Assembly (NCBI GenBank): GCA_016748015.1
Contig: JAAOMT010000706.1
Location: 234,764-298,763 of the forward strand
Length of the DNA: 64,000 nt
Source of the DNA: Geosiphon pyriformis uo1
Lineage: Eukaryota > Fungi > Glomeromycota
Direction: 5' to 3'
The notes under the pieces were generated by a model, which was given only the letters and a program-made list of their open reading frames with translations, ran no database searches and had not been told where the DNA came from. The first letter of the stretch is position 1. Every line of letters begins with the position of its first letter. Below are positions 589 through 64,000 of the stretch, piece after piece. A program made the translations under genes and the position numbers.

Positions 589-1555
589 TGTTACCAGAGG
601 TTTTTGGTCTCTTTTCTTGAATGTTGTAACTGTTTGTTGGTTGCAAATTCACATTTTCTAGAAGTAGTTGAACCTCCAATAACTGAATTTATCTTCAAAT
701 TATCTTTTATAATTTAAACTGCTGGACTTATAAGTAGAATGGCCAATTCTATGCCAGTTACTTTGTATAGTTACATTGTAGTAAATGCCAACTCTTTTTT
801 AGGAATTGCTCATTTGGAAGCTCACTAAAATATGTAGTTACTTTGCTGTAAAAGTCAACTCTTCTACAGAAATCTCGTCTGTAGGCTATCCTAATAATTA
901 CAGTAAGAAAATAAAAGAAAATAAAAGAAATGTAAAAGAAATTGAATTCTGTCAAGGGAAACTTTTTCTATCCAGGCCTGGAGTCACTAACAGTTTACTA
1001 AAATTGGTAGCTAATCAATTTTAAAACATTAGTTGGGTTTTGGGAATTTTCCAAGTGCAATAATTAAAAATTTGGTTTTTGAATTATTTGATATTTATTT
1101 CTTTTTGTGTGTGTAGGAATAATTCTAGTGATAAAATCTAAAGTAAGATACATTTTTTTGAAAAGAAAAGCTCTTTTTTTATACAACTTGTTATAGTACT
1201 AGTCTATGAACTTGCACTTTTTTTCTTTGCTCAAATTTTGGCAAACTAAAGATACATTTTGATAAACTACAAGTTATTTTGCTGAACTATTGATTAATTT
1301 GGATGAACTATTCATAATTTCGGCGAATTTCTATAAATTTCGGCGAATTTTAGAATGTTACAAAGTTCAGAGTATTGTGCAATTTGATCATTCTACTTTC
1401 TGTTATACTAATTGAATTATTTAATTGAATCGTGATATGTAATAATTGATTAAATAATAAATGATAATTTGAAATAATATTAATATATTAATTAATTATA
1501 GGAATTATAAGGGTAATTTTCCTGCTAATTAATAGCTAAAATTCTACTGATAACA
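589..1555 (-). repeat. 3' LTR of A1 (967 bp)
   Basis: Direct repeat of 9494-10440, 20 bp longer because of a tandem duplication near 1313-1352; preceded on the minus strand by the PPT. Confidence 0.95.
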
Positions 1556-2242
1556 AAATCTCCTCCTCAAGACTGAGCTCCATCAAAGTCCAAGCACTAT
1601 CTGTGATATTGAGATAGTAATCCAAAATAATTGAAATAATCTGGTTTGAAAATTGTTGAAATTTCAGTTCTGTAAGTTTGCCAATGTATTGGACTTTTAT
1701 TGGTTGCAGTATGGAATTTTGTAGAACATTTTCACAAGTATTAAACAAATTATAAAGTTTAAAAGCTGCTTTAAGTTTGTAGCAAGTGTTTGTTGGTCCA
1801 GCTGCTGTTTTGAATTCATTGTAGATTTGTTTTTGTATAACTTCAGGAGTGAGATTTGTTGCTTTAAGTTCCAGTTTTCGTTCATAAAGTGTTTTTCCAA
1901 TTTGAAAGTATTTATAGATAGAGGTGTGTTCATTGTCCTGTTCATTGAGAAGTAGTAGTAGTTTTTGTTGCATTGTAGCATTTGGTAGAATATCAATAGG
2001 GGCAATTAGCAGATTTTCTTCTAGTGCCTGCTTCAAAAGTCTTGGTAATCTATTCTCAGAGTGACTTCTTGTTTCTCTTCTATAGGGGTGATAGTTCTGT
2101 AAATAATTTGCTACTGAGACTGTGGTTTCTTTCTGAATGTATTTAATTTGACTTCCATTATTGTTATAGATAAGTCAGGGAGTGTTTTCAAGACTAACAT
2201 TAACTTTTGGGATATTTGTTAAATATTTCAGGGAATAATTAT
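1536..2242 (-). pseudogene. Accessory ORF3 of A1 (post-integrase, unknown function), disrupted
   Basis: ORF 1536-2036 (166 aa) matches the C-terminal part of the open 235-aa ORF 28906-29613; it runs through the PPT and stops inside the LTR. Confidence 0.8.
1559..1568 (-). promoter_or_regulatory. Polypurine tract of A1
   Basis: GAGGAGGAGA 3 nt upstream of the 3' LTR; identical tract at 29581-29590 in A2. Confidence 0.85.
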
Positions 2243-2393
2243 GATAAAATTGACTAATTATGAAAAGAGAGAATAAAGAAAATTATTTTTGGGTATAAAG
2301 TTTTTATTTGTTTTTGGGTTTTGGGTGTTTTGTAATTATTTATTATTTTTGTCTTTTATGTGTTGTTAAAGATTATTGTAAAATTATGTTGAA

Positions 2394-3766
2394 TTAAGTG
2401 TTTAAGTTTGGTTGTTGTTTTATTATAATTATTGGTTCTAAATTTCGGGAAATATCTTCAAGATTAATTAAAGGAGAATGTGTACCAATTTGTGAAATTA
2501 ATGGTTCAGGATTGTTTCTGGAATAATAGTGTTTCAATCTATTTCCATGTACAACTTTTGCTAGTACTTTGTCATCAAGTCTTAACTTGTATGATCCATT
2601 GCCTAAAATTTCGTGAATATAAAATGGTCCATCCCATTTGTTTTCAAATTTCCCATTCCATTGTTTTTCAGTCTTAGTTCTGTGTAAGAGAACTTTATTT
2701 CCTATTTTAAATTGGGTGGTAATTTGTTGTCATGTCTTTCTTTTTGTTGAGCTTGAGAATGTTCAATATGAATTGCTGCTATCCTTCTTTTTCCTTCTAG
2801 TGTACTAAGAAGAGTGTAGGCCCTTCTTTGGAGTGTTTCTTGCAAGTTCTCTTCATTAATTGGTTGTACAAGATATGTTTCCACTGTGAAATTAATTGGT
2901 AATGTTGCTGTTCTTCCATAAGTAAGATCAAATGGTGTGTGTTTCATAGTATTTTGTTTTAGTATTCTGTATGCTAGTAACACTAATGGAATAAAGATAT
3001 CCCATTCCTGTTCAAAGTTTGTTGAGACTTTGGCTAGAGATTCACACAATGTTCTGTTGAAATGTTCTACAAGTCCATTTGTTTAAGGGTAATAAGGTGA
3101 TGATAGAGGTCTTTTGATATTGAATCATTCACAAATTTTTTGTATCAAGTTGTTCACAAAATGTGTTCCTTGATCAGATAAGAGTTCAATTGGGCATCTA
3201 TGTCTACAGATAATGTCTTTATAAATAAAATTTGCTATTGATTTTATATCTGCTCTTTGAATGGCTCTAGCTTCAGGCCATTTGATAAGATAATCCACTG
3301 CAACTGCAATATAACAATTTTTTGGGTTGTGATAGGTAATGGTCTGACTAAATCAATTCTAACTCTGTCAAAAGGTTGTCCAACTTTGATTGGATTTAAA
3401 GATTCTGTGGGACGAGTTCCTCCTTTTTTTTTGACAACTATCACAAGATTCTACATATTGTCAAATGTCTTTTTGTATGTGAGGCCAAAAATAATGTTCA
3501 AGAGTTCTTTGAATTGTTCCATTTCTTGCCAAGTGTGCTGAAAAAGGATCTGTGTGCATGTTGTATAGAATTGTTTCATTTTCATTTTCCTGTATTAATT
3601 TGAGTGGTTGGTTTGGGTTTTTACAATTTTTGTAATAGATTTTGTTGTGATGTATAAAATATTGTTTGAATTGGTGTTGTAATCAATGTTTTTCACTTGG
3701 AAACCAATTTTCTGGCATGGTGAGAGTCTCCAAATAGTTTTTGATGTTGTAGTTTTCTGGATCCAT
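2394..3766 (-). pseudogene. Integrase of A1 (separate ORF)
   Basis: Starts MDPENYNI; HHCC zinc finger, IDLV, SDQGTHF, GLVEHFN core and GPF motif; no chromodomain; stops and frameshifts present. Confidence 0.9.
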
Positions 3767-3833
3767 TGTTGTTGATTTTGTTGTTTGTTCTGCTGTTAAG
3801 TTTGTTGGTATTTTGTTGGTGTTGATGTTGGTA

Positions 3834-6800
3834 TTAATATTGTTTCATTCTTGAGAGGCTATCAACATTGGTGTGTAGTTTTCCTGGTTTGTAATGTACA
3901 ATGTATCTGTAGTCTGCTAGGAAGTCATTCCATTGAGACTGTTTGGCATTTTGTTCAGTTTTCTTTTTATTAAGCCATTTGAGACCAATATTGTTAGTTA
4001 TTATGTCAAATTCTTTTCTATTCTTCAGGTATTGTTGAAAGTGTTTGAGAGCCCAGATGACTGCAGCGGCTTCCAATTCAGTTGAACCATATTTGAGTTC
4101 TGTTAGTTTGAGTGTTCTGCTGGCATAGGTAATAACTTGTTTCTGGCCATTTTTATCTAATTGTGATAAGATGGCACCAAATGCTATGTGTGAAGCATCA
4201 ATGGCTAATTGGAATCATTTGTTGAAGTCTGGGTAAGCAAGAACTGGAGCTGTTATCAATTTTGTTTTGAGAGTTTCAAAAGCTTTTTGTTGTTCTTCAG
4301 TTCATTTGTATGGTACGTTTTTGTTGGTAAGATAATTGAATGATTTGGCAATTTCTGAGAATCTTTTTATAAATTTTCAATAGTAAGAGACTAATCCTAC
4401 AAATCCTTATAGTTCTGTGGTATTTCTGGGAGTTTGAAAGTTTTTGACAACACTAATTGTTCCAGGATTTGGTTTGACTTCATCTTTGCTAATAATGTGT
4501 CCAAAAAAGATTAAGCTTGTTTTTCCAAAGTGACATTTCTCAATATTCAACTTCAATCCTGCTTTCCATAATTGTTGAAAAACTTCTTACAGGTGAATAA
4601 GATGGGCTTCAAAGCTTGGTGAGTACACATTAGTGTCATCAAGGTAAACAACTATTGATTGCCATAAGAGTTCTTCATATACAACATCCATGAGTTATTA
4701 GAATATTGCTGGTGCATTGCAGAGTTCAAAAGGCATAATATTGAACTCATAGTTTCCTTCTTAAATGGTGAATGCTGTTTTGGGTCAGTTTTTTGGGTCT
4801 ATTTCGACTTGTTAGTATCCACTTTCTAAGTCTAAAGTTGAGAAGAACTTGGCTTTTCTTAGAGCATCTAGTATGTCATCAATTCTTGGAAGAGAGTAAG
4901 CATCTCCAATTATTACACTGTTCAATTAGCAATAGTTAACACAAAATCTGATTTTTTCATTTTTCTTTTTGACAAGAACTACTGGTGAGGCCCAAAAACT
5001 TCTTGATAATTGAATCAATCTGTTATTGAGCATTCTCTGGACTTTTTTTCTGATGAATTGGTGGCTAGCAGGTGGCACTTTGTAAGCTTGCTGACATTTT
5101 GGTAGAGCATTTCTTGTATAAATCTAATGTTGAATCATATCTGTTTTTCCCAGATTATTGTTGTCTTTTGCAAATATATCTGCAAATTCAGCTATTAATT
5201 GTTTCAATTGTCTTTGTTGTTGAGGTTTTAAGAGACCCATGTTGATTTGAGAGAGTTTTTCTTTCAAAAAGTGGTAGTTTTCAGTAGTAAAAATGATATT
5301 TGGATTTGGGAGTAAAGTGTGCCTTACAATTTCAATGAAATTAAAGACAATTTGAGAGTTTTCATCTTGAAAAATATTGCTGTGTATGATTCCAATCTCT
5401 AGTTTGTTTAATAAAACAATAGGGTAATTATTGGGGTTGTAGAATATAACTTGAAATTTTTTCATTCCTTTGGGAATATAAACGTTTGGAATTGAGATTT
5501 CATGCTTCAAACAAATTTGTTCATTGGATTCAAAGATTTGTTGTATAGTGGTGGGTTTTGAGCAAGTGTAAATTTCGTGATGTTCTCCAAAAGGTGAAAT
5601 AGTAATTGGCTGGGGAAGTTGAAGAATCTGGTGAGATTCATTTTGTGTATTAAGAGCTATGTTTACTGGAACTGTAAATCGTCCAGTTGAACCAAAACCT
5701 TGAGTTCTTTTTTCACTTTTTCCCAATTGTTCTTTGTTGTTTAGTGATTGTAAACCTGAAATGTTGATTAAGGGTAAGTAAATTGCTTGAGCAATTTTTT
5801 CAGCATGTTCAATTTTGAATGGTTTGTCTGTCTCATTTTGTAATATGATGGTAATGTTTCCAGTGTATTCTGCATTTATAACTCCTCCTCTAATATTGAT
5901 TCCTTTGCTTGCCAATGATGATCTGGAGGCAATTTGAACTATTGCTCTTGGTGGAATTTCAAGAGCAATTTTGAGATTGATTTTTGTCAAGAACTTTGGT
6001 TGGAGAACCAAAGTATCTTTTTCTGGGTATCTTAGGTCATATCCAGCATCAATTTCATGTGCTTTTTTTGGTCTGATTTTTTGGCCATGGTTGTCAAAAT
6101 ATTCAAGTTGTAAAGGTGGTTGCTTTTCAAGAAGATAGATGAGGGTGGTTGGTAGTTTTTTTACTAGTTCAGATACTCCAAATTCGATTTTATTTTCATT
6201 ATTCTCATCTGGCAGAGGAATGCTAAGAGCATAACATTCTAAACACCATTGGTCATCACAAGGCATAACATATTCTTCACACAATTGAATGTTCATTTGC
6301 TCTAATTGTTGAATTTGAGCTTCTTTGGTCGGATATGTGTGGCTTGCAATTTGGTAATAGGTTTTTACTTCATCTTCATAATCAAATCCAGCTAATTTCA
6401 TGGTATACTCAATATATTCAGCTTCTTTCATTTAGTGGACATCTTCTTGGGTGGTTCTATTGATCAATGCCATTGCTAGGTCAAAAATCATTTCAGCATC
6501 ATGAGGGTAGTAGTAAAGTTTATTGAGAGCACTGTTGTATGCTGTATCAAATAGTGTTCTTCTTCTGACTTTTTCCGAAATTGATAAAGCATATTGACAG
6601 ATCTGATCACATACTCCTCCTCTCATTGCTATATCAATCCAATTGTATTCTTCTGGTAGTCTTTCTCTACAAGTAAGGCAAGAAGTTTTGTCACATTTTC
6701 CACTTCTCTTTGGAGATCCAAATTGTTCTCTATGGCATGCCTTGCAGAAATAACAAGTGCGAGTTTTGTATTCCTCTTCTGGGGAAATACAGGCTCCCAT

Positions 6801-9446
6801 AGATGAAAGCTTCTTTTTGCAATCTTTGCATTTTAGTGGAATGTATGGTGGTGCTTTTCGTGATTCTGGTGTGAAATATCTAACTTTCTTTCATTCTCTT
6901 GATTCTTCAAAAATCTCTTGTTCTGTTTCCTCAGCCCAATTGGATGGTGATTTAAGAGCCATGTAGGTTTCAGTGAGTGGCATTTCCTTCTCTTTTTCAA
7001 ATTCAAATACTGAAGCTTTTTCTGATTGTTTGTTAAAGGTACTACAGGTTGCAGGTACTATGGTATATTGTTCTTGATATGAGATTTTAAGTTCTTGAGT
7101 TTCCCAGTTCAGGTTTGTATTGGCCTTAAGAAGCCAATCATTTTTGACTAGAGCTTGGTATTGGGGTGCATCCATAACAAGAACTTTAATTGGAATAGTG
7201 ATTCTATTAATTGTAAAGGAGAAATCATCAATTTCTCCTACTGGAGTTTTCTTCATACCATCAGCTGTGACAATAACTGTTTGAGCTGGTCTGTCTATGT
7301 TTCGTTTGAGTTGTTGCATCAGTTGGTAAGTGATGATGCTTCCAGCCAATTCACTATCTAAGATTAAGCAAATGGGTTTTTCTTCTACTGTAGTTTCTGT
7401 GTACATAGCAGTAATTGCTTTCTGTTCATTGACTGCTGCATTACTAAGCAGAAATAGTGATTCATTTGCTTCAAATTCAAATGGAAATATATCTGACAGA
7501 TTGGCATTTTGGGCAATTTGAGCTGGTAGAATGGTGTGGTTGGAAGGGTTTGATCTTGGTGCTGCAACTTCACCTTTAGAAAGTGCAGTTTGTTGAAAAT
7601 CCGATTCCTCTGGTATTGTAAGATAACTGGGTTGAGTGTAATAGTGATTGGGTTTTTGTTGACCAGAATTTCGGAGAACCAACTGGTTATTTGAATTGAT
7701 TCTGTTGTTGTTACTTTGCAATTGATTTTGGGGTGTGGATTGGTTATGTTGAACTAATCTTCTTGCTGGTACTTGATATTGTTGAGTGGGTGGTGTCTGA
7801 TATGGCTGAATTGGTAAAGATTGCTAATATTGTTACTGCATTGGTTGTGGAGCTGGTGGATAATAACTGTTTTGATTTTGTGGTTTTGGTGAATAATAGG
7901 TTGGTGGTGAAGATTGGTAATAAGATTGTTGTGGTAAAGAGTAACATTGATTACTCCTGTTTTGTTGGTCTCTTTGTAATTTCTTACAATCTCGTTTCTA
8001 GTGTTCTGGGATTTCACAATAATGACAATTTTGAGGTTGGTTGTTGGATGGTAATCCAAAATTGTTTTGGTTGCATCATTGTGGAGGTTGATATCTTTGT
8101 GGTTGTTGTTGGTTTGTGAAATAGCTTTCAACTTTTTTTGTGAGTTGGTCTATCTTTTCTTCAGCTGCTGAACTGGTTTCTCCAATTGTAAGGTTTACAA
8201 GCTTGGTGTGATTTGCTTCTTCCATTGCCATTTCATAGCTCTTTACATGTCTAATAGCAGTTGCTAAGTCTGCTGGAGCATGTGGATAGACTTTCTTAAT
8301 CAGTTTGTCTTTTAACTCTGCTATAAACTGATTCAGAATTTAAGTATCAGAATAGTAGTTATTGGTTTCCAATTGTCAGATTCGTCTGAGAAGTTTGTTA
8401 AATCTTCCAAGATAGGTTATAACAGTTTCAGATGTTTCTTGTTTGATATTGGGAAAGTGGTTTCTGAGAGTGATAGAGGTATTGTTGTTGGTGAATTATT
8501 GTAGAAAAGCATCTTTGAATGCTTGCCAGTTTTCAAATGGTTCTTCTAAATTTTCAAACCATTCTCCTGCTGTTCTTTAGAGAAAGTAAGGAATTGCTTT
8601 AAGCATTCTTGCTGCAATCCAACCATTTGTATTTCCTGCTTTTTGAACTTTGTCGAGCCATTCTTGAGAACTGGTATCATTATCTTCACCCGTGAATTCT
8701 GGAATCTTTGCAATGTAAGCAGTTGTGATTTCCTCTTCATTTTCTGTGGCTTCTCCTTGTTCTGATTCAGTTTCTTCACTTTCTAAATTTTCTGAATGAT
8801 TACTTTCGTTTTCCTGCAAGTATTTAATAATATTGGTGCTTGTTGATATAGATTCCTGCTGTTGAGTAAGATTTCTAGGTGACTGAAAATCTTTTGGTCT
8901 GGAGAAATTTTTAAGTAGTGAATTTGGTGTTTGTGGTCGAGCAAATAAAATTAGAAATGGTGTGATAAAAAGTAGTAATTTGACACTGGTTCCTTGTTCA
9001 GATGTTTGCAAGTGTTTGGCAGTTGTCTTTGGTAGTATTGGAGTGTTTGGAGCGGTTTTTGAGTGTTGTTTCACTTTTTGTTTGTCTTTGTTGCCTGTTT
9101 CTGTTTCTGATTCAAAGTCAAAAGAGTATTTAAACTGTACTGGATATTTTTCTTCACAATACTTGATAATGTTGTAATTGAGTTCTTGAAAGTAGGTGGC
9201 AAGTGTTTCACTATTAAGATCTTCAGTTCCCAATTGTGAATAGTGTACTAGGTTATTGTAGAAGTTGCTTCTCACTTCTGAAATGTTGTAATTTCCAAGA
9301 AAATAATTGTTGATACAGTTTTTAATATATTGGTAGAGTGTTTTTTCAACAATTTTAATTCTGTCTGAGATGTTAAATCTCTGCTTGCAATAGGTGTAAA
9401 TTGACTGATAATACTCTAGAGTTGTTGTGTCTGGTGTGGTTGCCAC
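3834..9446 (-). pseudogene. gag-PR-Cys-rich-dUTPase-RT-RNaseH polyprotein of A1, one frame with premature stops
   Basis: ORF fragments 8577-9446, 6891-7721, 6432-6800, 5124-6431 and 3834-4076 are all in one frame. Capsid IPEFTG..QEWL, CCHC knuckle near 8000, protease LILDS(G), RT YLDD at 4634-4645, RNaseH DASH and ELEAAA, ending DSLSRMKQY-stop. Confidence 0.92.
5682..6080 (-). other. dUTPase domain within A1 pol
   Basis: All five trimeric dUTPase motifs: AGYDL, RSS, GGVI(N)AEYTG, KIAQ, GFGSTG. Confidence 0.92.
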
Positions 9447-9473
9447 TTTGAAGTTTGTTGTTTGCTGTGTTAT

Positions 9474-9491
9474 TTCTGTAAGAGAGCATTA
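9474..9491 (-). promoter_or_regulatory. Primer binding site of A1 (mutated; consensus TGGTGCTCTC from A3/B3)
   Basis: Lies 2 nt after the 5' LTR; other copies read TGGTGCTCT/TGGTGCTCC, complementary to a tRNA ending -GAGCACCA; tRNA identity not determined. Confidence 0.7.
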
Positions 9492-9493
9492 AA

Positions 9494-10440
9494 TGTTACC
9501 AGAGATTTTTGGTCTCTTTTTTTGAATGTTGTAACTGTTTGTTGGTTGCAAATTCACGTTTTCTAGAAGTAGTTGAACCTCCAATAACTGAATTTATCTT
9601 CAAATTATCTCCTATAATTTGAATTGCTGGGCTTATAAGTGGAATGGCCAATTCCATGCCAGTTACTTTGTATAATTATGTTGTAGTAAATGCCAACTCT
9701 TTTTCAGGAATTGTTCATCTAGAAGTTCACTAAAATGTGTAGTTACTTTGCTGTGAAAGTCAACCCTTCTACAGAAATCTCATCTGTAAGCTACCCTAAT
9801 GATTATAGTAAGAAAATAAAAGAAAATAAAAGAAATGTAAAAGAATTTGAATTCTGTCAAGGAAAACGTTTTTTATCCAGGTCTGGAGTCACTAACAGTT
9901 TACTGAAATTGGTAGCTAATCAATTTCAAAATGTTAGTTGGGTTTTGGGAATTTTCCAAGTGCAATAATTAAAAATTTGGTTTTCAAATTATTTGATATT
10001 TATTTCTTTTTGTGTGTATAGGAATGGTTCTAGTAATAAAATCTAAAATAAGATACATTTTCTTGAAAAAAAAAGCTCTTTTTTTATACAACTTGTTGTA
10101 GTACTAGTCTATGAACTTGCACTTTTTTTCTTTGCTCAAATTTTGGTAAACTAAAGATACATTTTGATGAACTACAAGTTATTTCGCTGAACTATTGATT
10201 AATTTGGATGAACTATTCATAATTTCGGCAAATTTTAGAATGTTACAAAGTTCAGGGTATTGTGCAATTTGATTATCCTACTTTTTGTTATACTAATTGG
10301 ATTATTTAATTGAATCGTGATATGTGATAATTGATTAAATAATAAATGATAATTTGAAATAATATTAATATATTAATTAATTATAAGAATTATAAGAGTA
10401 ATTTTTCTGCTAATTAATAGCTAAAATTCTACTGGTAACA
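9494..10440 (-). repeat. 5' LTR of A1 (947 bp)
   Basis: Repeat of 589-1555; followed by PBS and gag. Confidence 0.95.
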
Positions 10441-11725: not shown

Positions 11726-14700
11726 GCATCAAAAGAAAAAATAAGAGAAATAAAAAGCAACCCACCAGAACCTATAAAACTTGATTGGATTCCAAATTCT
11801 GATATTGTTTTCAACACTATGAATTCAGAACAATTCCACAAATATTATCAGGACCTAGCACTCACTAAGAAAAAGCAAGAGCAATGTTTAGAACAACTAA
11901 ACATTTGATTATGTGACTATTGTTTGATTCCATGTAACTTTTAATATTGTAATAAGTATGATCTTATTTATAATCTACTATTATGTATAATTTACACGAT
12001 TCCAGAGAAAGAAAAACCAATTAGCAGTTGCACATTGGAATTGAAATCAATATTCAAACTTTGAAAATAACAATAACAATAACAATGGTTTTAATTCTGT
12101 TCAATATGGCAACCAAAATAACAATGATTCAAATCCCAAACAATATATCACACTCTTTGATCTCACCAAGAAGCAGAAACTGAAATAGTTTAGTGATAAT
12201 AATGAAGATATTATGCCAGAACATGTGCATAATACTAATGCCAGGTTTGATTTGAGATATTTAGGGAAGGATGCCATCAAAGAGTAGTTTAGCAAAGAAG
12301 AGAATCAATATTAGAGAAGGAATAATTAACACAGAATATATGAGAAATATTATTGCAATGCTACAAAATAATTTAGAAAAGACTTACATCATAAAGCCAA
12401 ATGAAAAAATAGCACAGGCAATATTCCTGTCTCTGGTTAAAATAGCTTAGTTAGTATCAGTAGAAAACTGGAAAAAATTAGTGATTATAATTAGAAGGAT
12501 TAGTAGATTTGGATCAACAGAAAGAATAAACATACCAGTTAATATGGCAGAGAAAAAAGTTATTGACAAGAGAGAAATTATTTCCACCTGTCAATTAATT
12601 TCTATTCTACTATATAACTAGTACATAATAGCCATAGAAAAAAAAGTAAAGGATCAGGTTCAGATTTTTAAGGCAAAAGCAACACTTTGTGAATTAAAAA
12701 AGATTGGATTAATCAATCTACATATACCAGCCAAGAACCACAGTCACATTAAAATTTCTATTTACAGCAACATAAAAAATGTTATTGAGATATTAGAAGA
12801 AACTACCATTGGATATTTAACCACCAAAATCGAAAACCAACCACCAAATCTCATTCCAGATTTTTTACAACTGTGTGGATATGTCAACATAACATTACAA
12901 ACCATTTATAGATGGAATGAATGTTATTTGCTCCAACCAAAACAATTGGAACAAATGAACATAGAAAACTTAGACTCATTTCAATATATGCAATTTAAAA
13001 TATTACTCAACAACTTTACTGACATTTTTGCAAGTGAAAACAAGTTTAGTAAAACTGATATAATTCAGTACCAGATCAGGACTAGAGATGTAATGCCAAT
13101 CAAACAAAGAGCATACTGAATATTACCAGCCAGTCATGAGATCATTTGTTAAGAAATCAATTGGATGCTTGACAACAGGCTAATTCAGTCATCAATGAGT
13201 TCATGGTCATTACCAGTGGTATTAGTCTATAAAAAAAATGGAAAAATCCACTTTTGTATGGATTACAAAAAACTCAATGGTGTAAATTGTGAAGACAATT
13301 ATCCAACTCCATGAATTCAAAAATTATTTGACACTTTCAGAAGAAAAAAATAGTTCTTGATATTAGATCTAGATAGCAGTTACTGACAAGTAGCCATAAA
13401 TCCAGAAGATAAGAAGAAGACGGTATTTACCACAAGAAAAGAGAATTTTGAATTTGAAGTAATGCTATTTGGCTTAACCAATATACTGGTCACATTCCAA
13501 CAGCTAATGGAAATTGTTTATACTGGACTACTGTAAAAATCAGTAGTTGTGTATTTGAATAATACTAATGTGTTCTCAAAAACATTTGATGATCATTTCC
13601 ATTATCTCCAGTAAGTGTTTGAAAGATTGAAAAAAGCAGGATTAAAACTAAATGCAACCAAATGTTTTTTCAGCAAGACAAAACTCAAGTTTTTGGGACA
13701 TGTTGTAAGCAAAGAGAGCATTAAAACAGATCTAGATAAAATTGAAATAGTAAAGTCTTTTCCAGTATTCACTAACTTGACCAAACTAAAAGCATTCTTA
13801 AGATTTACAGAGTACTATCATTGATTCATCAAGAATTTTTCCAAACTAGCTCAACTACTGCATTATCTACAAACCAAAAATATTAAATATAAATAGACTG
13901 AAACACAACAAAAAGTTTTTGATACACTAAGAAGAAAGTTTATTTAAGCTCCAGTACTAATTTATCCAGATCATAGCAAACCATTTATTATTACTATCAA
14001 TGTATCAAGTCAAGTATTGGGAGCAGTACTATTACAAAAAAGACTGAATAGAAGAAAACATCCAGTAATATATGTCAACTAAAGCTTAATACCAGCCAAA
14101 AAAAACTATAGAACACTTAGCAATTTATTAAGCTGTTATAAAATAGAAAGAATACTTAAGCCAGAAATTTGAAGTGCACACTGATCACAAAGGATTGACT
14201 TCAATCCAGAAACAAGAATTTAGAGATAATCGACATATGAGATAGAAAATAGCACTTTCACCATATACTTTTACAGTATACTATAAAAAAAAAAAAAACA
14301 GAAATGCTGACAGTTTGTCGTAGATAAAACAAATCTAAAAACATTTTAATACAAAAATATAACAAAAGGTGAATACACAAAAATATCAACAACTTTAACA
14401 TTTTATAAATACTCAACAGTTCAAAGAAAAATTATCTCCAAAAAAACAAAACCATATCAAACAACAGTCCAAATATTTTATTATTCACTAAGATATACTT
14501 TATCGAAAAAACAGAAAGAATTCAGACCAACCAATCCAAGTAATCACAAAACCAAAGAAAGAAACAATATTATTCAATATGCACTCTGATCTAACAGCAA
14601 GACATTTTTACAAAGAAGCAACCATAAAAAGAACCAGAAAAAGATACTATTGGCCATTAATGTATCCAGATATCATCCAATATATTTAAAATTGTAATAC

Positions 14701-24600: not shown

Positions 24601-27295
24601 TTTCAATAAACTGTATCACTATTCTTATGATGCTGAAATGATTTTTGACTTAGCAATAACATTAATCAATAGAGCCACCCAAGAAAATGTCCACCAAATG
24701 AAAGAAGTTAAATATATTAAGTATACTATGGAATTAGCTGAATTTGATTATGAAGATGAAATAGAAACCTACTACCAAATTGCAAGTAATACATACTCAA
24801 CTAAAAAAGCTCAAATTCAACAATTAGAGCAAATGAACATTCAATTATGTGAAAAATGTGTTATGCTTTGTGATGATCAATGGTGTTTAGAATGTTATGC
24901 TTTTAGCATTCCCTTACCAGATGAGAATCATAAAAATAAAATCGAATTTGAAGTATCTGAACTGGTAGAAAAACTACCAACCACCCTTATTTATCTTTTT
25001 GAAAATCAATCATTCTTATAACTTAAATATTTTGACAACCATGGCCAAAAAATTAGACCAGAAAAAGCACATGAGATTGATGCTGGATATGATCTAAGAT
25101 ACTCTGGAAAAAATACTTTAGTTCTCCAACCAAAGTCCTTGACAAAAATCAATCTCAAAATTACTCTTGAAATTCTACCTGGAGCAATGGTTCAAATTGT
25201 ATCTAAATTATTATTGGCAAGCAAAGGAATCAACATTAGAGGAGGAATTATAGATGCAAGATATACTGGAGACATTACAATCATGTTGCAGAATGAAACA
25301 GACAAATTATTTAGAATTGAACATGCTGAAAAGATTGCTCAAGCAATTTACTTACCCCTAATCAACATTTCGGGTTTACAGTCAGTAAACAACAGAGAAC
25401 AATTGGGAAAAAATGAAAGAGAAACTCAAGATTTTGGATTAACTGGACAATTTACAGTGCCAGTAAACATAGCTCTTAATGTACAGAATAAATCTCACCA
25501 GATTTTTCAACTTTTCTAATCAATCACCATTTCACTTTTTGGAAAACATCAAAAAATTTACACTTGCTCAAAACCCACCACCACTCAACAAATCTTTGAG
25601 TTCAATGAACAAATCTGTTTAAAGCATGAAATCTCAATTTCAAACGTTTATATTCCCAAAGAAATGAAAAAATTTCGAGTTACTTTTTACAATCCCAATA
25701 ATTATTCTATTGTTTTATCGAACAAATTAGAGATTAGAATTATACACAGTAATATTTTTCAAGATGAAAACTCTCAAATTGTCTCTAATTTTATTGAAAT
25801 TATAAGACATACTCTACTTCCAAATCCAAATATTATCTTTACTACTGAAAACTACTATCTTTTGAAAGAAAAACTCTCTCGAATCAACATGGGTCCCTTA
25901 AAACCTCAACAACAAAGACAATTAAAACAGCTAATAGCTGAATTTGCAAATATATTTACAAAAAACAACAATAATCTTGAAAAAACTGATATTGTTTAAC
26001 ATCAGATCCACACAGAAGATGCTCTACCAAAATGTCAATAAGCTTATCAAGTGCCATCTGCCAGCCACCAATTTATCAGAGAAGAAGTTTAGAGAATGCT
26101 CAATAATGAATTGATTTAACCATTAAGAAGTCCTTGGGCCTTACTAGTAGTATTTGTTAAAAAGAAAAAGAAAAAAATCAGATTCTGTGTAGTTTATTGT
26201 CAGCTCAACAGCATGACAATTGAAAATGCCTATCCACTTTCAAGAATTAATGACATGCTAGATGCATTGGGAAAAGCCAAGTTCTTTTCAACTTTAAACT
26301 TGGAAAGTGGATACTAACAAGTTGAAATGGACTCAAAAAATCGACCCAAAACAGCATTTACCACTTAAGGAGAAAACTATAAGTTCAATATTATGCCTTT
26401 TGAACTCTGCAATGCACTAGCAACATTCTAATGACTTATGGATGTTGTATATGAAAGATTCTTGTGGAAATCAGTAGTTGTTTATCTTGATAATATTAAT
26501 GTGTACTCACCAAGCTTTGAAGCTTATTTTATCCACTTGTAAGAAGTTTTTCAATGATTACAGAAAGCAGAATTAAAGTTGAATATTGAAAAATGTCACT
26601 TTGGAAAAACAAGTTTAATTTTTCTTGAACACATTGTTAGCAAAGATGGAGTCAAACCAAACTTTAGAACAATTAGTGCTGTCAAAACCTTTCAAACTTT
26701 CAAAAATACCACAGAACTATGAGGATTTGTAAGATTAGTCTCCTACTATTAAAAATTCATAAAAAGATTCTCAAAAATTGCCAAACCACTCAATTATCTT
26801 ATCAACAAAAATGTGCCATACCAATGAACTGAAGAACAACAGAAAGCTTTTGAAACTCTTAAGACAAAATTAACAACAGCCATAGTTCTTGCTTATCCAG
26901 ATTTTAACAAACAATTTCAACTAGCCATTGATGCTTTACACATAGCATTTGGTGTCATTTTATCACAATTAGATAAAAATGGCCAGAAACAAGTCATTGT
27001 TTATGCCAGTAGAACACTCAAGTCAACAGAACTCAAATATGGCTCAACTGAATTAGAAGCTGCCACAGTTATTTGGGCTATTAAACATTTTCAACAATAT
27101 CTAAAGAATGGAAAAAAATTTGATATCATAACTAACAACATTGGTCTTAAATGGCTTAATAAAAAGAAAACTGAACAAAGTGCCAAACAGTCTTAATGGA
27201 ATAATTTCCTAGCAGACTACAAATATTTTGTACACCATAAACCAAGAAAACTACATACCAATATTGATAGTCTTTCAAGAATGAGACAAGATTAA
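18695..27295 (+). pseudogene. gag-PR-Cys-rich-dUTPase-RT-RNaseH of A2, interrupted by element D
   Basis: Colinear with A1; dUTPase at about 25050-25447 (AGYDL, GGIIDARYTG, KIAQ); ends DSLSRMRQD-TAA. Confidence 0.9.
20240..23220 (+). mobile_element. Non-autonomous LTR element D (two 1420-bp LTRs, 141-bp internal region)
   Basis: LTRs 20240-21659 and 21801-23220, TGTTACC...GGTAACA; TSD CCAA; PBS-like T(A/G)GTGCCCT at 21662; purine tract AAAGGTGGAAAAAA before 21801; no coding domains. Confidence 0.92.
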
Positions 27296-27350
27296 CACCA
27301 CTAACAATTCCACTACAACTTACTATTATCAACAAAACAACAAAACAACA

Positions 27351-28747
27351 ATAGATCCCAAAAATTATAACAACCTCAAAAACTATTTGGAGACTCTTAC
27401 CATGTCAGAAAATTGGTTTCCAAGTGAAAAACATCGATTACAACACCAATCCAAACAATATTTCATACACCATAACAAAATCTATTACAAAAATTGTAGA
27501 AACCTAAACCAACTACTCAGATTAATACAGGAAAATGAAAAAAAAACAATCTTATACAACATGCACACAGATTTATTTTCAGCATACTTGGGAAGAGATG
27601 AAACAATTCAAAGAATCCTTGAACACTATTTTTGGCTTCATATGCAAAAAAACATTCAACAATATATAGAATCTTGTGATAGTTGTCAAAAAAGAGAAGA
27701 AACTCACCCTACAGAATCTTTAAATCCAATCAAAGTTGAACAACTTTTTAACAGAGTGGAAATTGATTTAGTTGGATTATTACTTATCACAACCCAAGGA
27801 AATTGTTATATTGCAGTTGCAATAGATTATCTTATCAAATGGTCTAAAGCTAGAGTCATCCAAAAAGCAAATACAAAATCAGTAGCAAATTTTATCTATA
27901 AAGACATTATTTGTAGACATAAATGCCAATTGAACTTTTATCTAATCAGGAACACATTTTGTGAACAACTTAATACAAAAAATTTGTAAATGATTCAATG
28001 TCAAAAGACCTCTATTATCACCTTATTACCTTCGAACAAATAGACTTGTAGAACATTTCAATAGAATATTTCAATAGAACATTGTGTAAATTTTTAGCCA
28101 AAGTCTTAACAAATTTTAAGCAGAAATGAGATATCTTTATTCCATCAATGTTGCTAGCATACAGAACACTAAAACAAAATACTATAAAACACACACTATT
28201 TGATCTTACTTATAGAAGAACAGCAATATTACCAATTAATTTCACAGTAGAAACATATCCAGTACAACCAATCAATGAAAAAAACTTTCAAGAAACACTT
28301 CAAAGAAGAGCTTACACTCTTTTTAGCACATTGGAAAAAAAGAGACACATAGCAGCCACTCATATTAAACACTCCCAAGCCCTACAAAAAGAAAGGCATA
28401 ACAATAAATTGCCATCAATTACCAATAAATTTAGAATTGGAAATAAAGTTTTCTTACACAGAACTAAGACTGAAAAACAATGGAGTGGAAAATTTGAACA
28501 TAAATAGGATGGACCATTTTATATTCACAAAATTTTAGGCAATGAATCATATAAGTTAAAACTTGATGACAAAGTACTAACAAAAGTTGCACATAGAGAT
28601 AAATTGAAATACTATTATTCCAGAAACAATTCTAAACCATTAAATACACAAATTGGTACATATTCCCCTTTAGTTAATCCTGAAGATATTCCCCAAAATT
28701 TAGAATCAATAGTTATAATAGAACAACAATTAAACTTGAATACTTAA
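27351..28747 (+). pseudogene. Integrase of A2 (separate ORF)
   Basis: ORFs 27387-27989 and 28148-28507; HHCC, IDLVG and GPF motifs. Confidence 0.9.
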
Positions 28748-32458: not shown

Positions 32459-35400
32459 CTGTCTTAGTTTTTATATATATTTAAATTTACAATTTAATTT
32501 ATTATCAATGAATTACATTTTAATAATAATAATTGGTTTTAGATTTCATAGTATATTTTCTGGTCTAATTAATAGAATTTGTGTTTTTACAAATAACAAA
32601 AACTTTTGGTTGATATAATAAATTTTCAGTCAATTTTTATGTGCTATTTTCTTTAAAATTTTGTTTTTTAATTGTAATTTGTATGCTCTATTGCCTAAAA
32701 CTTTGTGTATATAAAATAGTCTGTTCTATTTTGAGTTAAATTTTCTATTTTACTGTTTTTTAGCTTTAATACAATTTAATAATATTCTGTCTCTAATCTT
32801 AAATTTAGCTAGTTGGTCAAATAGACAATTATTATGTCTCTCTTTTTGTTATTTCTGAGTATTACCAATATTGTTAGCTGCTGTTTTACAATTGTTTTTT
32901 AATGTTTCCATTAACTAGTATGTTTTATGATATAAAATAGCTTTAAAATTTTTTTTGGTAATTAATTCTTTTGAGAAAAATAGTATTTTTTATTCAATAT
33001 ATAGAGTAATTTGTCTTTTATAAACTAGTTCAAATAGTGTAAACTAGATAGTATTTTGCTTTTGTGTTTGATATACAAATAATACAAAGAATATAAAAAA
33101 GTCTTATTTTTGTGTATTTTTGTAACTTATTTTTATTAATGCTTTACATAATATTTAGTTAAATTGTTTTATCAGTTTATTTGTTTGTAAATAATATGAC
33201 AATAATAATAATTACTTTATTTTAAATTGTTGGCTTAGTTTGGTTAATATATTATTAACAAAATAAGTTTCTTGGTTAAATAATAATTTTTTTGGATATT
33301 TATATTAGCAAATTAAATCTTGATATACAAATTTGGCTATTGTTTTAGTGTTAACTACTGAAATAACTCTGGCTTTAGGCTATTTAATAAAGTAGTTTAC
33401 AGCTATAATAATGTGGCGATTTTTTTTGAATGTAATTAAGAAAGAACCAACCAAATTAATTCTAATTCTATTAAATAAATTTTTAACTGAAATAGGTTAA
33501 AATGGTTTTATAATTTCAATTCCTTTTCTTTATTAATATAAGTTATAATTAATAATGTATTTAAAAATATTTTTATATATTATTGGCCAATAGTATAAAT
33601 CTATTGTTCTTTCTAAAGTAGTATCTTTATTAAAGTGTTCTATAGTTAAATCAAAATGCATACTATGCAAAACAGTTTTTTTTTACTATCTTTTATAACT
33701 TGTTGTGGAATAGTACAGTTTTGGCATTCATAATAATATAGTTGATTTTTTTAAATAATGTAATTGTAAACTTGTTTTTATATACCATTTTGTTCTTGTT
33801 AAGATAATTTCTTCTTAAACTGTATTGTTAATAGATACTGGTGTAATTGCTGATAGATAGTTGTGTTTATAAATCCAGAATTAAATTTGCATTATTTTTA
33901 ATAAACTGTTAATATTGGTGTTCTTAGTTCTTTACTTATAATGTACTTTGTATAGAAATTATTGCAAATAAGTATTTTATTGTACATATCTTTTTTTCAA
34001 TTATGGCTTGTTAAATAACTAAATAGATTCTTTGTAATTTATATATAAATCAAATGATTGGCAAAGATAGTGTTTTCAATTTGTACTGTTTTGTAAATAA
34101 TAAAACATTTTAAATCTGTTATGCTATATATTTTTTTTATTGGACTGGTACTGTAACTGGCATAAGTAATTGAGTGTTTTTAATTATTTAGTCTAATTTA
34201 AAATAAAATAACTCCTAATGTATTTTTTAAAGCATTTGTAACAACAATAAAGTGTTTATTGAAGTTTGGATAAATTAATATTGGTGTTTTTATTAAGCAT
34301 TGTTTAAAATAGTCAAAAGTTTCTTGTTGTTTTTTCTCTATAAATATAAAACATATTTTAACAATAAGTAATAAAGTGGTTTTGTAATGTTTGAAAAATC
34401 TTTGACAAATCTGCAGTAATATTTAGCCAATCTTAAAAATCTTTTTAGTTTTTATAGATCGGTTAAAGCCAAAAAGTTTTTGACTTTTTTTATTTTGTCT
34501 AAATCAGATTTTACTCTATTTTTTCTTATTATATGTCTTAAAAATTTTAGTTTAATCTTTTTAAAGAAGCATTTGTTTAGGTTAAGCTTTAGTTTGACAC
34601 TTTATAAGTGATTAAAAATTTGTTAAAGATAAAACAAATGATCATTAAATGTTTTTAAAAACACATTAGTATTGTCCAAATATACTACAACTGATTTCTA
34701 GAGAATTTTTTGTACACAACATTTATAAGACATTAGAAAATAGCTGGGATATTGCAAAGTTTAAAAAGCATTATATTGAATTTAAAGTTTCTGTCTTATA
34801 TAGTAAATGCTGTTTTCTCTTTGTTTTTGGAGTTTATTTTAACTTGCCAATATTTACTGGCTAAATTTAAAAAGAAAAATTATTTTTTATTCTCTAGGTT
34901 GTCTAAAATTTTCTGAATAAAAAAAGTTGAATAGTTATCTTCTCAAGTAATATTGTTGAATTTTCAATAGTTTATGTAAAACTGTATTTTTTCATTTTTT
35001 TTGGTAATCAATACTACTAAAAAAGACCAAAAACTTAATAATTTTTTGATCAATCTATTATTTAATATCTGTTGTACTTTTTGTTTAATTAAATTATTAC
35101 CTATTGAAGTTACTAAGTAGATTTATTGTTTAATGAGTCTGGTATTTCTTATGTTAATCTGATGTTTTACAATATCAGTATGTTTTTATTAATAAAGATA
35201 TTAACATATTGTTTTAAAAGAACTTTAAGTTACATTTGTTATAGAATACTTAAGTTTCTAAGATTTAATTTAACAATTTTTTCTGGTGTAAACAAGTAAT
35301 TTTTTTTTGGCAGGTTCTATACTTGAAAAGTAATATCACAAAATAAGAACAATTGTGTAAAGTTTGGAATAGACTGGGATTTTTTAGAATTTTAAATGTT

Positions 35401-36658: not shown

Positions 36659-37162
36659 TGTTACCCAAATAAAAAAAACAAATCCAAAAGATATTGAAAA
36701 AACATGATTAAGAAATATGATAACATAGAAAAAATATAATAATACAAAATAACACAAAATAATATATTATAACTCAAGATAATATAAGATAACACAATAA
36801 TGTAAAATAGCACAAAATAACTAGTTATAATATAAAAAAATAAAGCAACAACAAAAATAGTAAGCAATAGCTAATAATAACAAATAATTAAAAAGCAATC
36901 TTGTAAAACTAAAAATATGTATAAAAATGAATAGTTTTAGCAATAAAGAAAAAACAAAAAGACAGAGAAAATAGTTAAATAGAAAATATATTTTTTATTT
37001 ATATCTACTAGATTTATTTTACTTATATATCTACATTATCTCAAATAAAAAAAATATTTGAAACTAAAAATCACTTATTTATAATTCTTGAATCTTATGT
37101 TTAAACCAAATTATTTATTTTCTTTTTTTGTTTCTAGCCAAATGCTCTTAACATAAAAATAT
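36659..37162. repeat. Probable LTR fragment of another family with AAAAT-rich low-complexity tract
   Basis: Starts TGTTACC exactly where E1 homology stops; no matching end or TSD found. Confidence 0.4.
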
Positions 37163-47319: not shown

Positions 47320-50300
47320 TTTTCTATATGTAAGATTAAATAGTATGTGTTTTGTAGTATTTGTTTTAGTGTTCTGTATGCTAGTAATACTGATGGAATA
47401 AAGATATCCCATTTCTGCTCAAAATCTGTTAAGACTTTGGCTAAAGATTTACACAATGTTTTGTTGAAATATTCTACAAGTCCATTTGTTTAAGGATGAT
47501 AAAGTGATGATAGAGGTCTTTTGATATTGAATTGTTTACAAATTTCTTGTATCAAGTTGTTCACAAAATATGTTCCTTGATCAGATAAAAGTTCAATTGG
47601 GCATTCATGTCTACAAATAATGTTTTCATAAATAAAATCTGCTACTAATTTTGCATCTGTTTTTTGGATGGCTCTAGCTTTAGGCCATTTGGTGAAATAA
47701 TCTACTGCAACTGCAATATAACAATTTCCTTAGGTTGTAATAGGTAATAGTCTGACTAAATCAATTCCAACTCTGTCGAAAGATTGTCCAACTTTGATTG
47801 GATTTAAAGGTTTTGTGAGATGAATTCCTCCTCTTCTTTAACAACTATCACAAAATTCTACATATTGTTAAATGTTTTTTTGCATGTGAGGCCAAAAGTA
47901 ATATTCAAAAGTTCTTTAAATTGTTTCATCTCTTCCCAAGTGTGCTGAAGAAGGATCTGTGTGCATATTGTATAGAATTGTTTTTTTTTCATTTTCTTGT
48001 ATTAATCTGAGTAGTTGATTTGGATTTCTGCAATTTTTGTAATAAATTTTGTTGTGGTGTATGAAATATTGTTTGAATTGGTGTTGTAATCGATGTTTTT
48101 TACTTGGAGACCAATTTTCGGGCATGGTAAGAGTCTCCAAATAGTTTTTGATGTTGTTGTAATTTCTGGAATCTATTGTTGTTTGGTTATTTTTGTTGAT
48201 AGTTGGTAAGTTGTAATGAAATTGTTGTTGGTATTAATCTTGTTTCATTCTTGAGAGACTGTTCACATTGGTGTGTAGTTTTCTTGGTTTGTAATGTACA
48301 ATATATTTGTAATTTGCTAGAAAGTCATTCTATTGAAACTGTTTGACACTTTGTTTGGTTTTTTTTTATTAAGCCATTTGAGGCCAATATTGTCAGTTAT
48401 AATGTCAAATTTTTTTCTATTCTTTAGATATTGTTGAAAATGTTTAATAGCCCAAATGACTACAACAGCTTCTAATTCAGTTGAGCCATATTTGAGTTTT
48501 GTTGGCTTGAGTGTTCTACTAACATAGGCAATAACTTGTTCCTGACCATTTTCATCCAATTGTAACAGAATGGCACCAAAAGCTATATGTAAAGCATCAG
48601 TGGCTAGTTGGAATTGTTTGTTGAAATTTGAGTAAATAAGAACTAAAGCTGTTGTTAATTTTGTTTTGAAGGTGTCAAAGGCTTTCTGTTGTTTTTCAGT
48701 TCATTGATATGGCACGTTTTTGTTGGTAAGATAGTTGAGTGGTTTGGCAATCTCTGAGAATTTTTTTATGAATTTTTGATAGTAGGAGATTAATTCTACA
48801 AATCTTTGTAGCTCTGTGGTATTTCTGGGTGTTTGAAAGTTTTTAACAGCACTAATTGTTTCAGGATTTGGTTTGACTCCATCTTTGCTAACAATATGTC
48901 CAAAAAAAATTAAACTTGTTTTTCCAAAGTAACATTTTTCAATGTTCAACTTTAATCTTGCTTTCTATAATCATTGAAAAACTTCTCACAAATAGATAAG
49001 ATAGGCTTTAAAACTTGGTAAGTATATATTAGTGTTATTAAAATAGACAACTACTGATTGCCATAAGAGTCTTTCATATACAACATTCATGAGTTGCTAA
49101 AATATTGCTGGTGCATTGCAGAATTCAAAAGGCATAACATTGAACTCATAATTTCTTTCTTGAGTAGTAAATGCTGTTTTGAGTCAATCTTTTAGATCTA
49201 TTTTAACTTGCCAATATCCACTTTTCAAGTCTAAAGTTGAGAAGAACTTGGCTTTTCCTAAAGCATCTAGCATGTCATTAATTCTTAAAAGAGGATAGGC
49301 ATCTTTAATTATTATACTGTTCAGTTGGTAATAGTCAACACAAAATCTGATTTTTTCATTTTTTTTTTAACAAAGACTACTGATAAGACCCAAGAACTTT
49401 TTAATGATTGAATTAATCCATTATTGAGCATTCTTTGGACTTCTTTTCTAATGAATTGGTAACTGGCAAGTGGAACTTGATAAGTTTGTTGTTGTTTTGG
49501 TAGAGCATCTGCTGTATGAATCTGATGTTGAACAATATTAGTTTTTCTAAGATTATTGTTGTCTTTTGCAAATATGTTAGTGAATTCAGCTATTAGCTGT
49601 TTTAATTGTCTTTGTTGTTGAGGTTCTAAGAGATTCATGTTGATTCAAAAGAGTTTTTCTTTCAAAAGATGGTAGTTTTCAGTAGTAAGAATGATGTTTG
49701 AATTTGAAAGTAGTGTATGTTTTATAATTTCGATGAAATTAGAGACAATTTGAGGGTTTTTATTTTGGAAAATATTGCTGTGTATGATTCCAATTTCTAA
49801 TTTATTCAATAAGACAATAGGGTAATTATTGGAATTGTAGAATGTAACTCAAAATTTTTTTATTCTTTTGGGAATATAAACATTTAAGATTGAGATTTTA
49901 TGCTTTAAACAGATTTATTTATTGGATTCAAAGATTTGTTGGATAGTGGTGGGTTTTGAGCAAGTGTAGATTTCTTGATGTTCTCTAAAAGATGAAATGA
50001 TAATTGGTTGGAGAAGTTGAAAAATCTGGTAAGATTCATTCTATGTATTGAAAGCTATGTTTATTGGCACTGTAAATCATCTAGTTGAACCAAAACTTTG
50101 AGTTCCTTTTTCATTTCTTCCCAATTGTTCTCTGTTATTTACTGATTGTAAACCTAAAATGTTGATTAAGGGTAAATAAATTGCTTGGGCAATTTTTTCA
50201 GCATGTTCAATTCTAAATGGTTTGTTTGTTTCATTTTGTAACATGATAATAATGTTTCTAATATATTCTGCATCTATGACTTCTTCTTTAATATTGATTC

Positions 50301-63450: not shown

Positions 63451-64000
63451 TGTTACTCATAGAATATAGGAAATATAATATTATTAGTCAGTAGATATTA
63501 GCCAATCAGATGTAGATATAGTAAATGTGGAATTCCAGGATTCCTCTCAGAGGAATTGCAGGATTCCAGGAATTTCAGAATTTCCCGACAAGGAATCGCA
63601 GGATTCTAAGAATTCCAGGATTCCTAGTGCAAGAAATGGAGGAATTGAGGAATCTTAATTATGTATATATAGCAGTAAGATTAAAAGCTGAAAAGACAGA
63701 CCTCTCCATTTTAGATTTAATCTAAGCAACTCTCCAAATCACAATCATCTAAATAAATTACTATTTGTTATCCCAAAATTCACATCTACTATCAACTATT
63801 TATGTTGATAATAATTGATACTTAACCACATTGGAACAATAGCTCTTGATTATGGCTATTGACGGGATACTAACTTTGTAAATTGTCTTGGTTTATTGCT
63901 TTAGATTTCTTTATTTTCTTTAATTTTCTTTGATTTTGTTACTTTGTACTAACCAAGTGATTAAAAAGCGCTGATTATTGACATCAAAAATTGCCTGGTA
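63451..64000 (+). repeat. Family B LTR (B4), runs off the window end
   Basis: TGTTACTCATAGAATATAGG start and GGAATTCC repeats, homologous to 31578 onward. Confidence 0.9.

What the first reader, a model, noticed from the sequence alone, without database searches (positions are those of the whole stretch)
3766..3840. Split pol: conserved stop after RNase H, integrase encoded as a free-standing ORF in all three Gypsy families
Seen: five of five readable copies end RNase H with DSLSR-x-x-Q-x-TAA (A1 3834, A2 27293, A3 48234, B2 about 14336, E1 about 33882). A spacer of 67, 55, 57, 30 or 10 nt follows, which does not preserve frame. Integrase then starts at M-D-P/M-N-T (ATG in A1; ATA in A2, A3 and E1; GTG in B2). 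Established: canonical Ty3/Gypsy IN is cleaved from a continuous Pol. Inference: this lineage makes IN separately (reinitiation, +1 frameshift or subgenomic RNA) while gag-PR-RT is one frame, so it needs another way to package IN. With the dUTPase and ORF3 this may be an undescribed LTR-retroelement lineage.
Basis: partly seen in the sequence, partly recalled or inferred. Interest (0 to 1): 0.82.

Follow-up and report, generated by a model that had tools for sequence, protein, structure and literature searches.

The report
Retrotransposon integrase as its own gene
In these fungal jumping genes, and in many intact relatives from soil, the polyprotein gene stops right after RNase H and integrase sits in a reading frame of its own, so it is likely made as a free protein and would need an unknown route into the particle, unlike textbook Ty3/Gypsy elements.

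Summary
The stop is real. All five decayed copies have TAA four codons after the RNase H end motif. Shared stops alone are weak evidence here: 5 of 1181 codons are stops in all three A copies. Outside evidence decides it. Family contigs show no variant at 2% or more at this TAA. The 10 closest intact relatives with RNase H on the contig are all split, each with a Met at the same integrase start. 106 of 120 related RT-RNase H proteins end within 45 residues of the motif. Spacers of -11 to 521 nt in all three frames argue against a frameshift. ATG is depleted before the integrase start and a purine sits at -3, which fits separate initiation, probably reinitiation. A subgroup carries a covarying bulged hairpin before the start, with no Rfam match and absent from this window. 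One origin of the split is not shown. The scan reported this layout on other genomes (four earlier findings). My literature searches found no description.

The parts
589..10440 (-). Element A1: complete but decayed LTR retrotransposon, about 9.85 kb, TGTTA...TAACA ends, 4-bp target duplication GCAG
9494..10440 (-). A1 5' LTR (92% identical to the 3' LTR)
589..1555 (-). A1 3' LTR, preceded by a polypurine tract
3834..9488 (-). A1 gag-protease-dUTPase-RT-RNase H in one frame, with decay stops; ends at TAA 3836-3834
5682..6071 (-). A1 dUTPase domain between protease and RT
   Evidence: Pfam PF00692 E 3.6e-23
3767..3833 (-). A1 spacer, 67 nt, 58% A, 3% G, no ATG, no predicted structure
2394..3766 (-). 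A1 integrase ORF starting ATG (M-D-P); carries later frameshift and stop lesions
1536..2212 (-). A1 ORF3, function unknown; start uncertain
27293..27353 (+). A2 junction: TAA, 55-nt spacer (+1), ATA at the integrase start position
48174..48236 (-). A3 junction: TAA, 57-nt spacer (in frame), ATA at the integrase start position
14336..14371 (+). B2 junction: TAA, 30-nt spacer (in frame), GTG at the integrase start position
33868..33883 (-). E1 junction, very decayed: TAA, 10-nt spacer, ATA

Best explanation
These Ty3/Gypsy-type retrotransposons end their Pol reading frame a few codons after RNase H and carry integrase as a separate reading frame, which is likely translated from its own AUG by ribosomes that probably restart after the Pol stop. 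Shown: the stop, the separate frame, the Met at one homologous position, free spacer length, ATG depletion and the start context. Inferred: the stop-start replaced the short protease-cut linker of fused relatives. The small subunit likely stays on the genomic RNA, crosses a short, AUG-poor and in this window A-rich, unstructured spacer (or none, in the TAATG overlap types), and starts at the next AUG. Free integrase would then need to enter the particle by binding the genomic RNA, Gag or RT, as foamy virus Pol does; this step is untested.
For: 10 of 10 loci scoring at least 290 bits to P0013 with RNase H on the contig are split; the query was built from free integrases, but the upstream RNase H stop was not selected for. 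Each has Met at the same column, and M1 is invariant in 26 of 26 free integrases. Fused relatives have no Met there (P0107, P0025, P0097). 106 of 120 best RT-RH hits end within 45 residues of the RNase H motif, 92 of them within 15. L010 and L023 have TAATG overlaps and L014 has ATGAACAATAA, the junction type of coupled termination-reinitiation in CHV1, influenza B and SART1 (PMC10275272 passages; PMC2699510 listing). In 20 spacer-type loci ATG occurs 6 times in the 100 nt before the start, against 18.9 expected from dinucleotides; it is not depleted further upstream (27/28.9, 62/60.2) or after the integrase stop (10/11.4). A purine is at -3 in 18 of 20 (background 0.58, P about 0.002). All four window spacers examined lack ATG.
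Against: No expression data. Known TURBS-type reinitiation needs stop and start within about 20-30 nt, whereas three window spacers are 55-67 nt. None of 10 loci has TGGGA before the Pol stop. L011 (521 nt, 8 upstream ATGs, an 83-codon ORF), L030 (278 nt, 3) and L086 (308 nt, 4; probably shorter, as its Pol tail seems frameshifted) are hard to cross by simple scanning. ATG depletion and a -3 purine fit the 5' leader of a subgenomic RNA equally well. GTA is also depleted (9 vs 17.7) and the antisense strand shows a mild ATG deficit (20 vs 28.6). Only 1 of 5 window copies still has ATG. The RT search saw only proteins of 265-846 aa, which hides most long fused forms.
Confidence: 0.5

Rival explanations
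1. Integrase is a separate gene but is made from a subgenomic RNA (spliced from the LTR leader, or from an internal promoter in pol).
For: Explains long spacers with upstream ATGs and inserted ORFs (L011, L030, L023, L025), the ATG depletion limited to about 100 nt, and further downstream ORFs. ORF3s of LTR elements are typically made from spliced RNAs (PMC5408684 passage).
Against: No common acceptor: a branch-point-like word followed by YAG within 120 nt was found in 7 of 20 loci and 2 of 4 window copies, and L012 has no YAG at all. Exact stop-start overlaps would not be needed.
Confidence: 0.25
2. Ribosomes enter internally just before the integrase AUG: through a structured RNA in one subgroup and an A-rich unstructured leader in elements like those of this window.
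For: A bulged hairpin ends 1-33 nt before the AUG in L008, L017, L021, L025, L029 and L087, with 7 of 11 pairs changed on both sides and 95.5% of cells paired. It occurs once per locus and only there. Window spacers are 51-63% A.
Against: The hairpin is absent from the window and from most split loci. It could instead be a packaging or protein-binding signal. The structure was drawn from the same six sequences, which inflates the controls.
Confidence: 0.15
3. A programmed frameshift or stop readthrough joins RNase H and integrase into the usual polyprotein.
For: Four of 12 relatives and 2 of 5 window copies are in frame across the stop. Two NCBI gene models (P0203, P0290) join RH to IN.
Against: Spacer frames are 0, 1 and 2 across relatives (4, 1 and 7 of 12) and vary among contigs of one family (net indels -6 to +2 in 8 shown of 311 laid). 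Several spacers hold further in-frame stops. It leaves the invariant Met and its context unexplained. The two gene models drop the RNase H end motif, which (recalled) holds a catalytic aspartate, so they look like predictor artefacts.
Confidence: 0.05
4. The split is decay: C-to-T mutation made the same stop in each copy of an originally continuous pol.
For: C>T and G>A dominate the changes, and four other codons are stops in all three A copies. A3 and B2 are in frame.
Against: No variant at 2% or more at this TAA in family contigs, against 88% at a decay-made shared stop. Intact relatives with long open ORFs on both sides are split.
Confidence: 0.03

Closest known systems
Canonical Ty3/Gypsy (Metaviridae), e.g. 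S. cerevisiae Ty3
   Same: LTRs with TG..CA ends, PPT, Ty3-type capsid Gag, order PR-RT-RH-IN, integrase with H2C2, DDE core and GPY/F; the nearest solved RT is Ty3 (E 3e-98).
   Different: The ICTV profile (PMC7879559, whole text read) puts integrase inside pol; here it is a separate ORF, followed by a non-env ORF3.
   Same: Integrase begins with the same first helix, about 10-30 residues after the RNase H motif; P0107 lies among split elements in two RT trees.
   Different: Continuous frame, and no Met at that position.
Ginger1 DNA transposons (Bao 2010, PMC2836005; abstract and passages)
   Same: A free Gypsy-like integrase of about 400 aa with a conserved stretch before the zinc finger and GPY/F.
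   Different: Ginger1 has terminal inverted repeats, no RT, and a C-terminal protease. These integrases lie in LTR elements behind RT-RH and do not nest with P0054 (integrase plus Ulp1) and eight look-alikes.
Termination-reinitiation after a long ORF: CHV1, influenza B M1/BM2, caliciviruses, SART1
   Same: TAATG and similar overlaps in L010, L023 and L014.
   Different: The window's spacers reach 67 nt, no TURBS core word was found, and none of these systems is an LTR-element integrase.
Foamy virus Pol
   Same: An enzyme made apart from Gag and packaged through bridging viral RNA (PMC3196705, start of abstract in the listing).
   Different: There the whole Pol, integrase included, is separate; here the cut falls between RNase H and integrase.
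dUTPase-bearing LTR elements of bdelloids and basidiomycetes (PMC5408684, passages)
   Same: dUTPase between protease and RT, and an extra ORF3.
   Different: Described with a canonical pol that includes integrase.

Membership tests
Metaviridae (Ty3/Gypsy) | Internal region flanked by LTRs | tested here: met
   A1 LTRs 92% identical, TG..CA ends, 4-bp target duplication
Metaviridae (Ty3/Gypsy) | PPT before the 3' LTR and PBS after the 5' LTR | tested here: inconclusive
   PPT seen in A1 and A2; a TGG-starting PBS-like stretch in A3 was not matched to a tRNA
Metaviridae (Ty3/Gypsy) | gag with capsid and nucleocapsid | tested here: met
   Retrotrans_gag in A3; Ty3_capsid and zf-CCHC in relatives L008 and L010
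Metaviridae (Ty3/Gypsy) | Domain order PR-RT-RH-IN and Ty3-like RT | tested here: met
Metaviridae (Ty3/Gypsy) | pol gene includes integrase | tested here: not met
   Stop after RNase H in 5 of 5 copies and 10 of 10 closest intact loci; so described as Ty3/Gypsy-like, not filed as a canonical member
Metaviridae (Ty3/Gypsy) | Placement within a named clade in a reference RT tree | not tested
   No named reference set (GyDB, Repbase) was available; trees used session sequences only
Metaviridae (Ty3/Gypsy) | Replication in particles primed by host tRNA | not testable with these tools
   needs experiments
Ginger1 DNA transposons | Terminal inverted repeats of 40-270 bp, no RT | tested here: not met
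   LTRs and RT-RH present
Ginger1 DNA transposons | C-terminal OTU or Ulp1 protease | tested here: not met
   None in P0013, P0145, P0153, P0157 or the L018 integrase; present in P0054
Troyka | CG..CG ends, 3-bp target duplication, no GPY/F, animal hosts | tested here: not met
   TG..CA ends and 4-bp duplication; features from PMC12440569 parts 1-3 of 5
TURBS-dependent reinitiation | Stop and start within about 20 nt | tested here: not met
   4 of 5 window spacers are 30-67 nt; met only by E1 and by L010, L014, L023
TURBS-dependent reinitiation | 18S-complementary core upstream of the stop (UGGGA, recalled) | tested here: not met
   0 of 10 intact loci have it within 120 nt

The most novel reading that the evidence does not exclude
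A large, unnamed group of polycistronic LTR retroelements of soil fungi has taken integrase out of Pol. It makes integrase from its own AUG on the genomic RNA and loads it into particles through RNA. One branch uses a new bulged-hairpin RNA element just before the integrase AUG to recruit ribosomes or integrase itself, and the group shares a small helical ORF3 with no known fold match.
Probability: 0.3. Interest if true: 0.87.

Novelty: new variant of a known kind. Interest (0 to 1): 0.7.

Why it matters
In LTR retrotransposons and orthoretroviruses, fusion to Gag-Pol sets how much integrase is made and delivers it into the particle (established knowledge). A widespread group that dropped this fusion must have another delivery route and a way to translate a downstream ORF in fungi. 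Intact elements (L008, L009, L010, L013) make both questions testable. It also matters for annotation: free 410-435 aa 'integrases' in soil metagenomes and some MAGs belong to these elements, and gene predictors bridge the stop with apparent false introns.

Tried and rejected
No whole genome was held. A single-protein scan of metagenomes with the decayed RNase H found nothing. No RNA holder was listed, so expression was not tested. Rfam gave no match at the hairpin, only two weak snoRNA hits elsewhere. A pattern scan of viral contigs gave five hits; four lie inside one kind of phage coding gene and none is at an integrase. The hairpin model found nothing in the window (E 2.5 or worse). Ginger origin of the integrase is not supported but not excluded, as the backbone is open. 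Single origin of the split: a FastTree clade (support 98, 121 rows) held 4 window copies, 8 of 9 split loci and all 102 proteins ending after RNase H. A 62-row quick tree needed 5 changes, and there I wrongly labelled fused P0107 as split. A 33-row careful tree left the backbone open, with 0 of 200 bootstrap trees showing one change. So monophyly is not shown, and L030 falls outside. ORF3: no convincing Pfam, PDB or viral fold match (best Z 5.0). Atlas leads to RegA and closterovirus coat had low shared-feature counts. The window ORF3 matched the relatives' family only weakly (E 0.014, probability 3%) and folded poorly (pLDDT 39). No model of an RT-integrase complex was obtained, so binding is untested. 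Kuafuorterviruses are animal elements by part 1 of 3 of PMC11673190 and were not compared further.

Full report
Setting. The window is AT-rich DNA packed with decayed LTR retrotransposons. The nearest named proteins are from Geosiphon pyriformis at 55-80% identity, so the host is probably that fungus or a close relative. PMC11952901 (passages) reports that 41% of that genome is LTR sequence. Element A1 is complete: LTRs at 9494-10440 and 589-1555 (92% identical), a 4-bp target duplication and a PPT. Gag, protease, dUTPase, RT and RNase H read in one frame, and integrase and ORF3 follow.

Observation. All five copies have TAA four codons after the RNase H end motif, with spacers of 67, 55, 57, 30 and 10 nt. 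Only A1 keeps ATG. The window alone is weak evidence: C>T and G>A changes dominate, and 5 of 1181 aligned pol codons are stops in all three A copies.

Is the stop ancestral? Contigs of run X1 were laid on two junctions; X1 may be the window's own source, and contigs drop rare variants. At codon 4304-4302, a stop in all three A copies, 88% of depth reads another letter (that table showed 40 of 244 rows). On the A3 junction 311 contigs were laid and 16 differences at 2% or more were listed, with none withheld. None falls on the TAA, while neighbouring sites vary up to 94%. The eight pieces shown differ in net length by -6 to +2 nt, so spacer frame varies within the family. The start codon lay outside the span with listed differences. 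A Geosiphon protein starting MDPRNY (P0003) supports ATG there.

Intact relatives. A search of cluster representatives returned many free integrases of about 410-435 aa that begin at the same Met. An alignment of nine of them fetched 162 loci. All 10 loci scoring at least 290 bits with RNase H on the contig are split, with long open frames on both sides. Among 66 lower-scoring loci with RNase H, 49 are fused and 17 split. I inspected two of the 17 (L030, L098; both have their own ATG); the other 15 were not examined and many have short broken frames. From the RT side, 106 of the 120 best hits end within 45 residues of the RNase H motif, 8 run longer and 6 lacked a recognisable motif. That search saw only proteins of 265-846 aa, but tails clustered at 1-15 residues (92 of 120) are not what random contig ends would give. 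Named members include Rhizophagus proteins (P0232, P0251, P0315).

Mechanism. Stop-to-start distances in 12 relatives are -11, -1, 30, 62, 63, 63, 74, 110, 117, 278, 308 and 521 nt, in frames 0, 1 and 2. This argues against a shared frameshift or readthrough. M1 is invariant in 26 of 26 free integrases. Fused relatives with the same first helix have a short linker and no Met there. In 20 spacer-type loci, ATG is depleted in the 100 nt before the start (6 vs 18.9 expected) but not further upstream or after the integrase stop. A purine is at -3 in 18 of 20. These are marks of a start codon found by scanning. L010 and L023 have TAATG overlaps and L014 a short overlap, as in known termination-reinitiation (PMC10275272 passages). 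I therefore favour reinitiation on the genomic RNA (0.5). Against it are spacers beyond the 20-30 nt TURBS range, no TURBS core word in 10 loci, and three long spacers with upstream ATGs. A subgenomic RNA (0.25) fits those, but no common splice acceptor was found. How free integrase reaches the particle is untested; foamy virus Pol offers an RNA-bridged precedent (listing only).

A new RNA element in relatives. Six loci (L008, L017, L021, L025, L029, L087) and weakly L006 carry a 41-nt element ending 1-33 nt before the integrase AUG. It has a short stem, an 11-nt purine-rich bulge, a 6-bp stem and a CA-NN-GUGA loop. Seven of 11 pairs change on both sides, and 0 of 500 shuffles reach the covariation score; the structure was drawn from these same sequences. 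There is no Rfam match. The model finds it once per locus, and not in the other 37 sources searched or in the window. Five of the six loci lie in one integrase subgroup (L029 was not in the tree). A likeness of the bulge to T-box stem I is recalled and untested.

Phylogeny. The five window integrases form one group (SH 99), and A and B RTs group with proteins that end after RNase H (99/98). The integrases do not nest with Ginger1-like proteins. A FastTree clade holds nearly all split elements, but a careful tree leaves the backbone open and fused P0107 lies among them. One origin is neither shown nor excluded. Relatives share an ORF3 family that folds confidently (pLDDT 88) with no clear structural match; the window's ORF3 is at best a weak member.

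Known or new. The ICTV profile (whole text) places integrase within pol, so that feature is not met. I describe the elements as Ty3/Gypsy-like with a split pol. Troyka (parts 1-3 of 5), Ginger (abstract and passages), fungal LTR surveys (PMC3248453, PMC11952901, PMC10224137; passages) and bdelloid dUTPase elements (passages) do not describe it in what I read. Searches found no report of it; subscription journals, Repbase and supplements were not seen. This scan has four earlier notes of the same layout, with overlapping start-stops, on other genomes. They agree but are not independent evidence. This window adds the long-spacer form, the contig control, the initiation statistics and the hairpin.

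Verdict. It is a new variant of a known kind, interest 0.7.

Noticed in passing
L008:4462-4502; L017:174-214; L021:7-47; L025:491-531; L029:18-58; L087:160-200: Covarying bulged hairpin just before the integrase AUG; no Rfam match; absent from the window.
   Followed up: yes
L008:5890-6330; L086:2613-3050; L010:8592-9176; L022:1123-1971; L007:1270-1662: Shared small helical ORF3 family after integrase, confident model, no known fold match.
   Followed up: partly
L011:868-1391; L023 and L028 upstream of integrase; L025:1-490: Extra ORFs lie between RNase H and integrase or directly before integrase; in L023 a non-RNase H ORF ends in a TAATG overlap with the integrase start.
   Followed up: partly
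L008:3506-4438; L086:137-1150: Pol carries an acidic C-terminal extension of about 310 residues after RNase H.
   Followed up: no
P0312: dUTPase lies after RNase H, and the protein ends there without integrase.
   Followed up: no
P0203, P0290: Rhizophagus clarus gene models join RNase H to integrase and drop the RNase H end motif; probably predicted introns bridging the stop.
   Followed up: partly
L086, L087, L088, L098; P0178: These retroelement contigs or proteins sit in assemblies labelled bacterial or archaeal, including a Gigaspora endosymbiont assembly; likely fungal contamination.
   Followed up: no
window 5124-7000 (-): Between protease and dUTPase A1 has a Cys-rich stretch of about 330 codons with several CxxC pairs and no Pfam match.
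   Followed up: no
window 41592-42179 (+): Decayed Tc5/pogo-type DDE transposase.
   Followed up: no
window 62652-63494 (+), with related pieces at 10433-11725, 31576-32458, 46029-47319: Another RT-bearing repeat family (RVT_1 E 1e-6), not part of the LTR elements studied.
   Followed up: no
window 20238-23220 and 37161-38387: A 1561-bp tandem duplication, 97% identical, inserted in element A2, with a third copy elsewhere.
   Followed up: no
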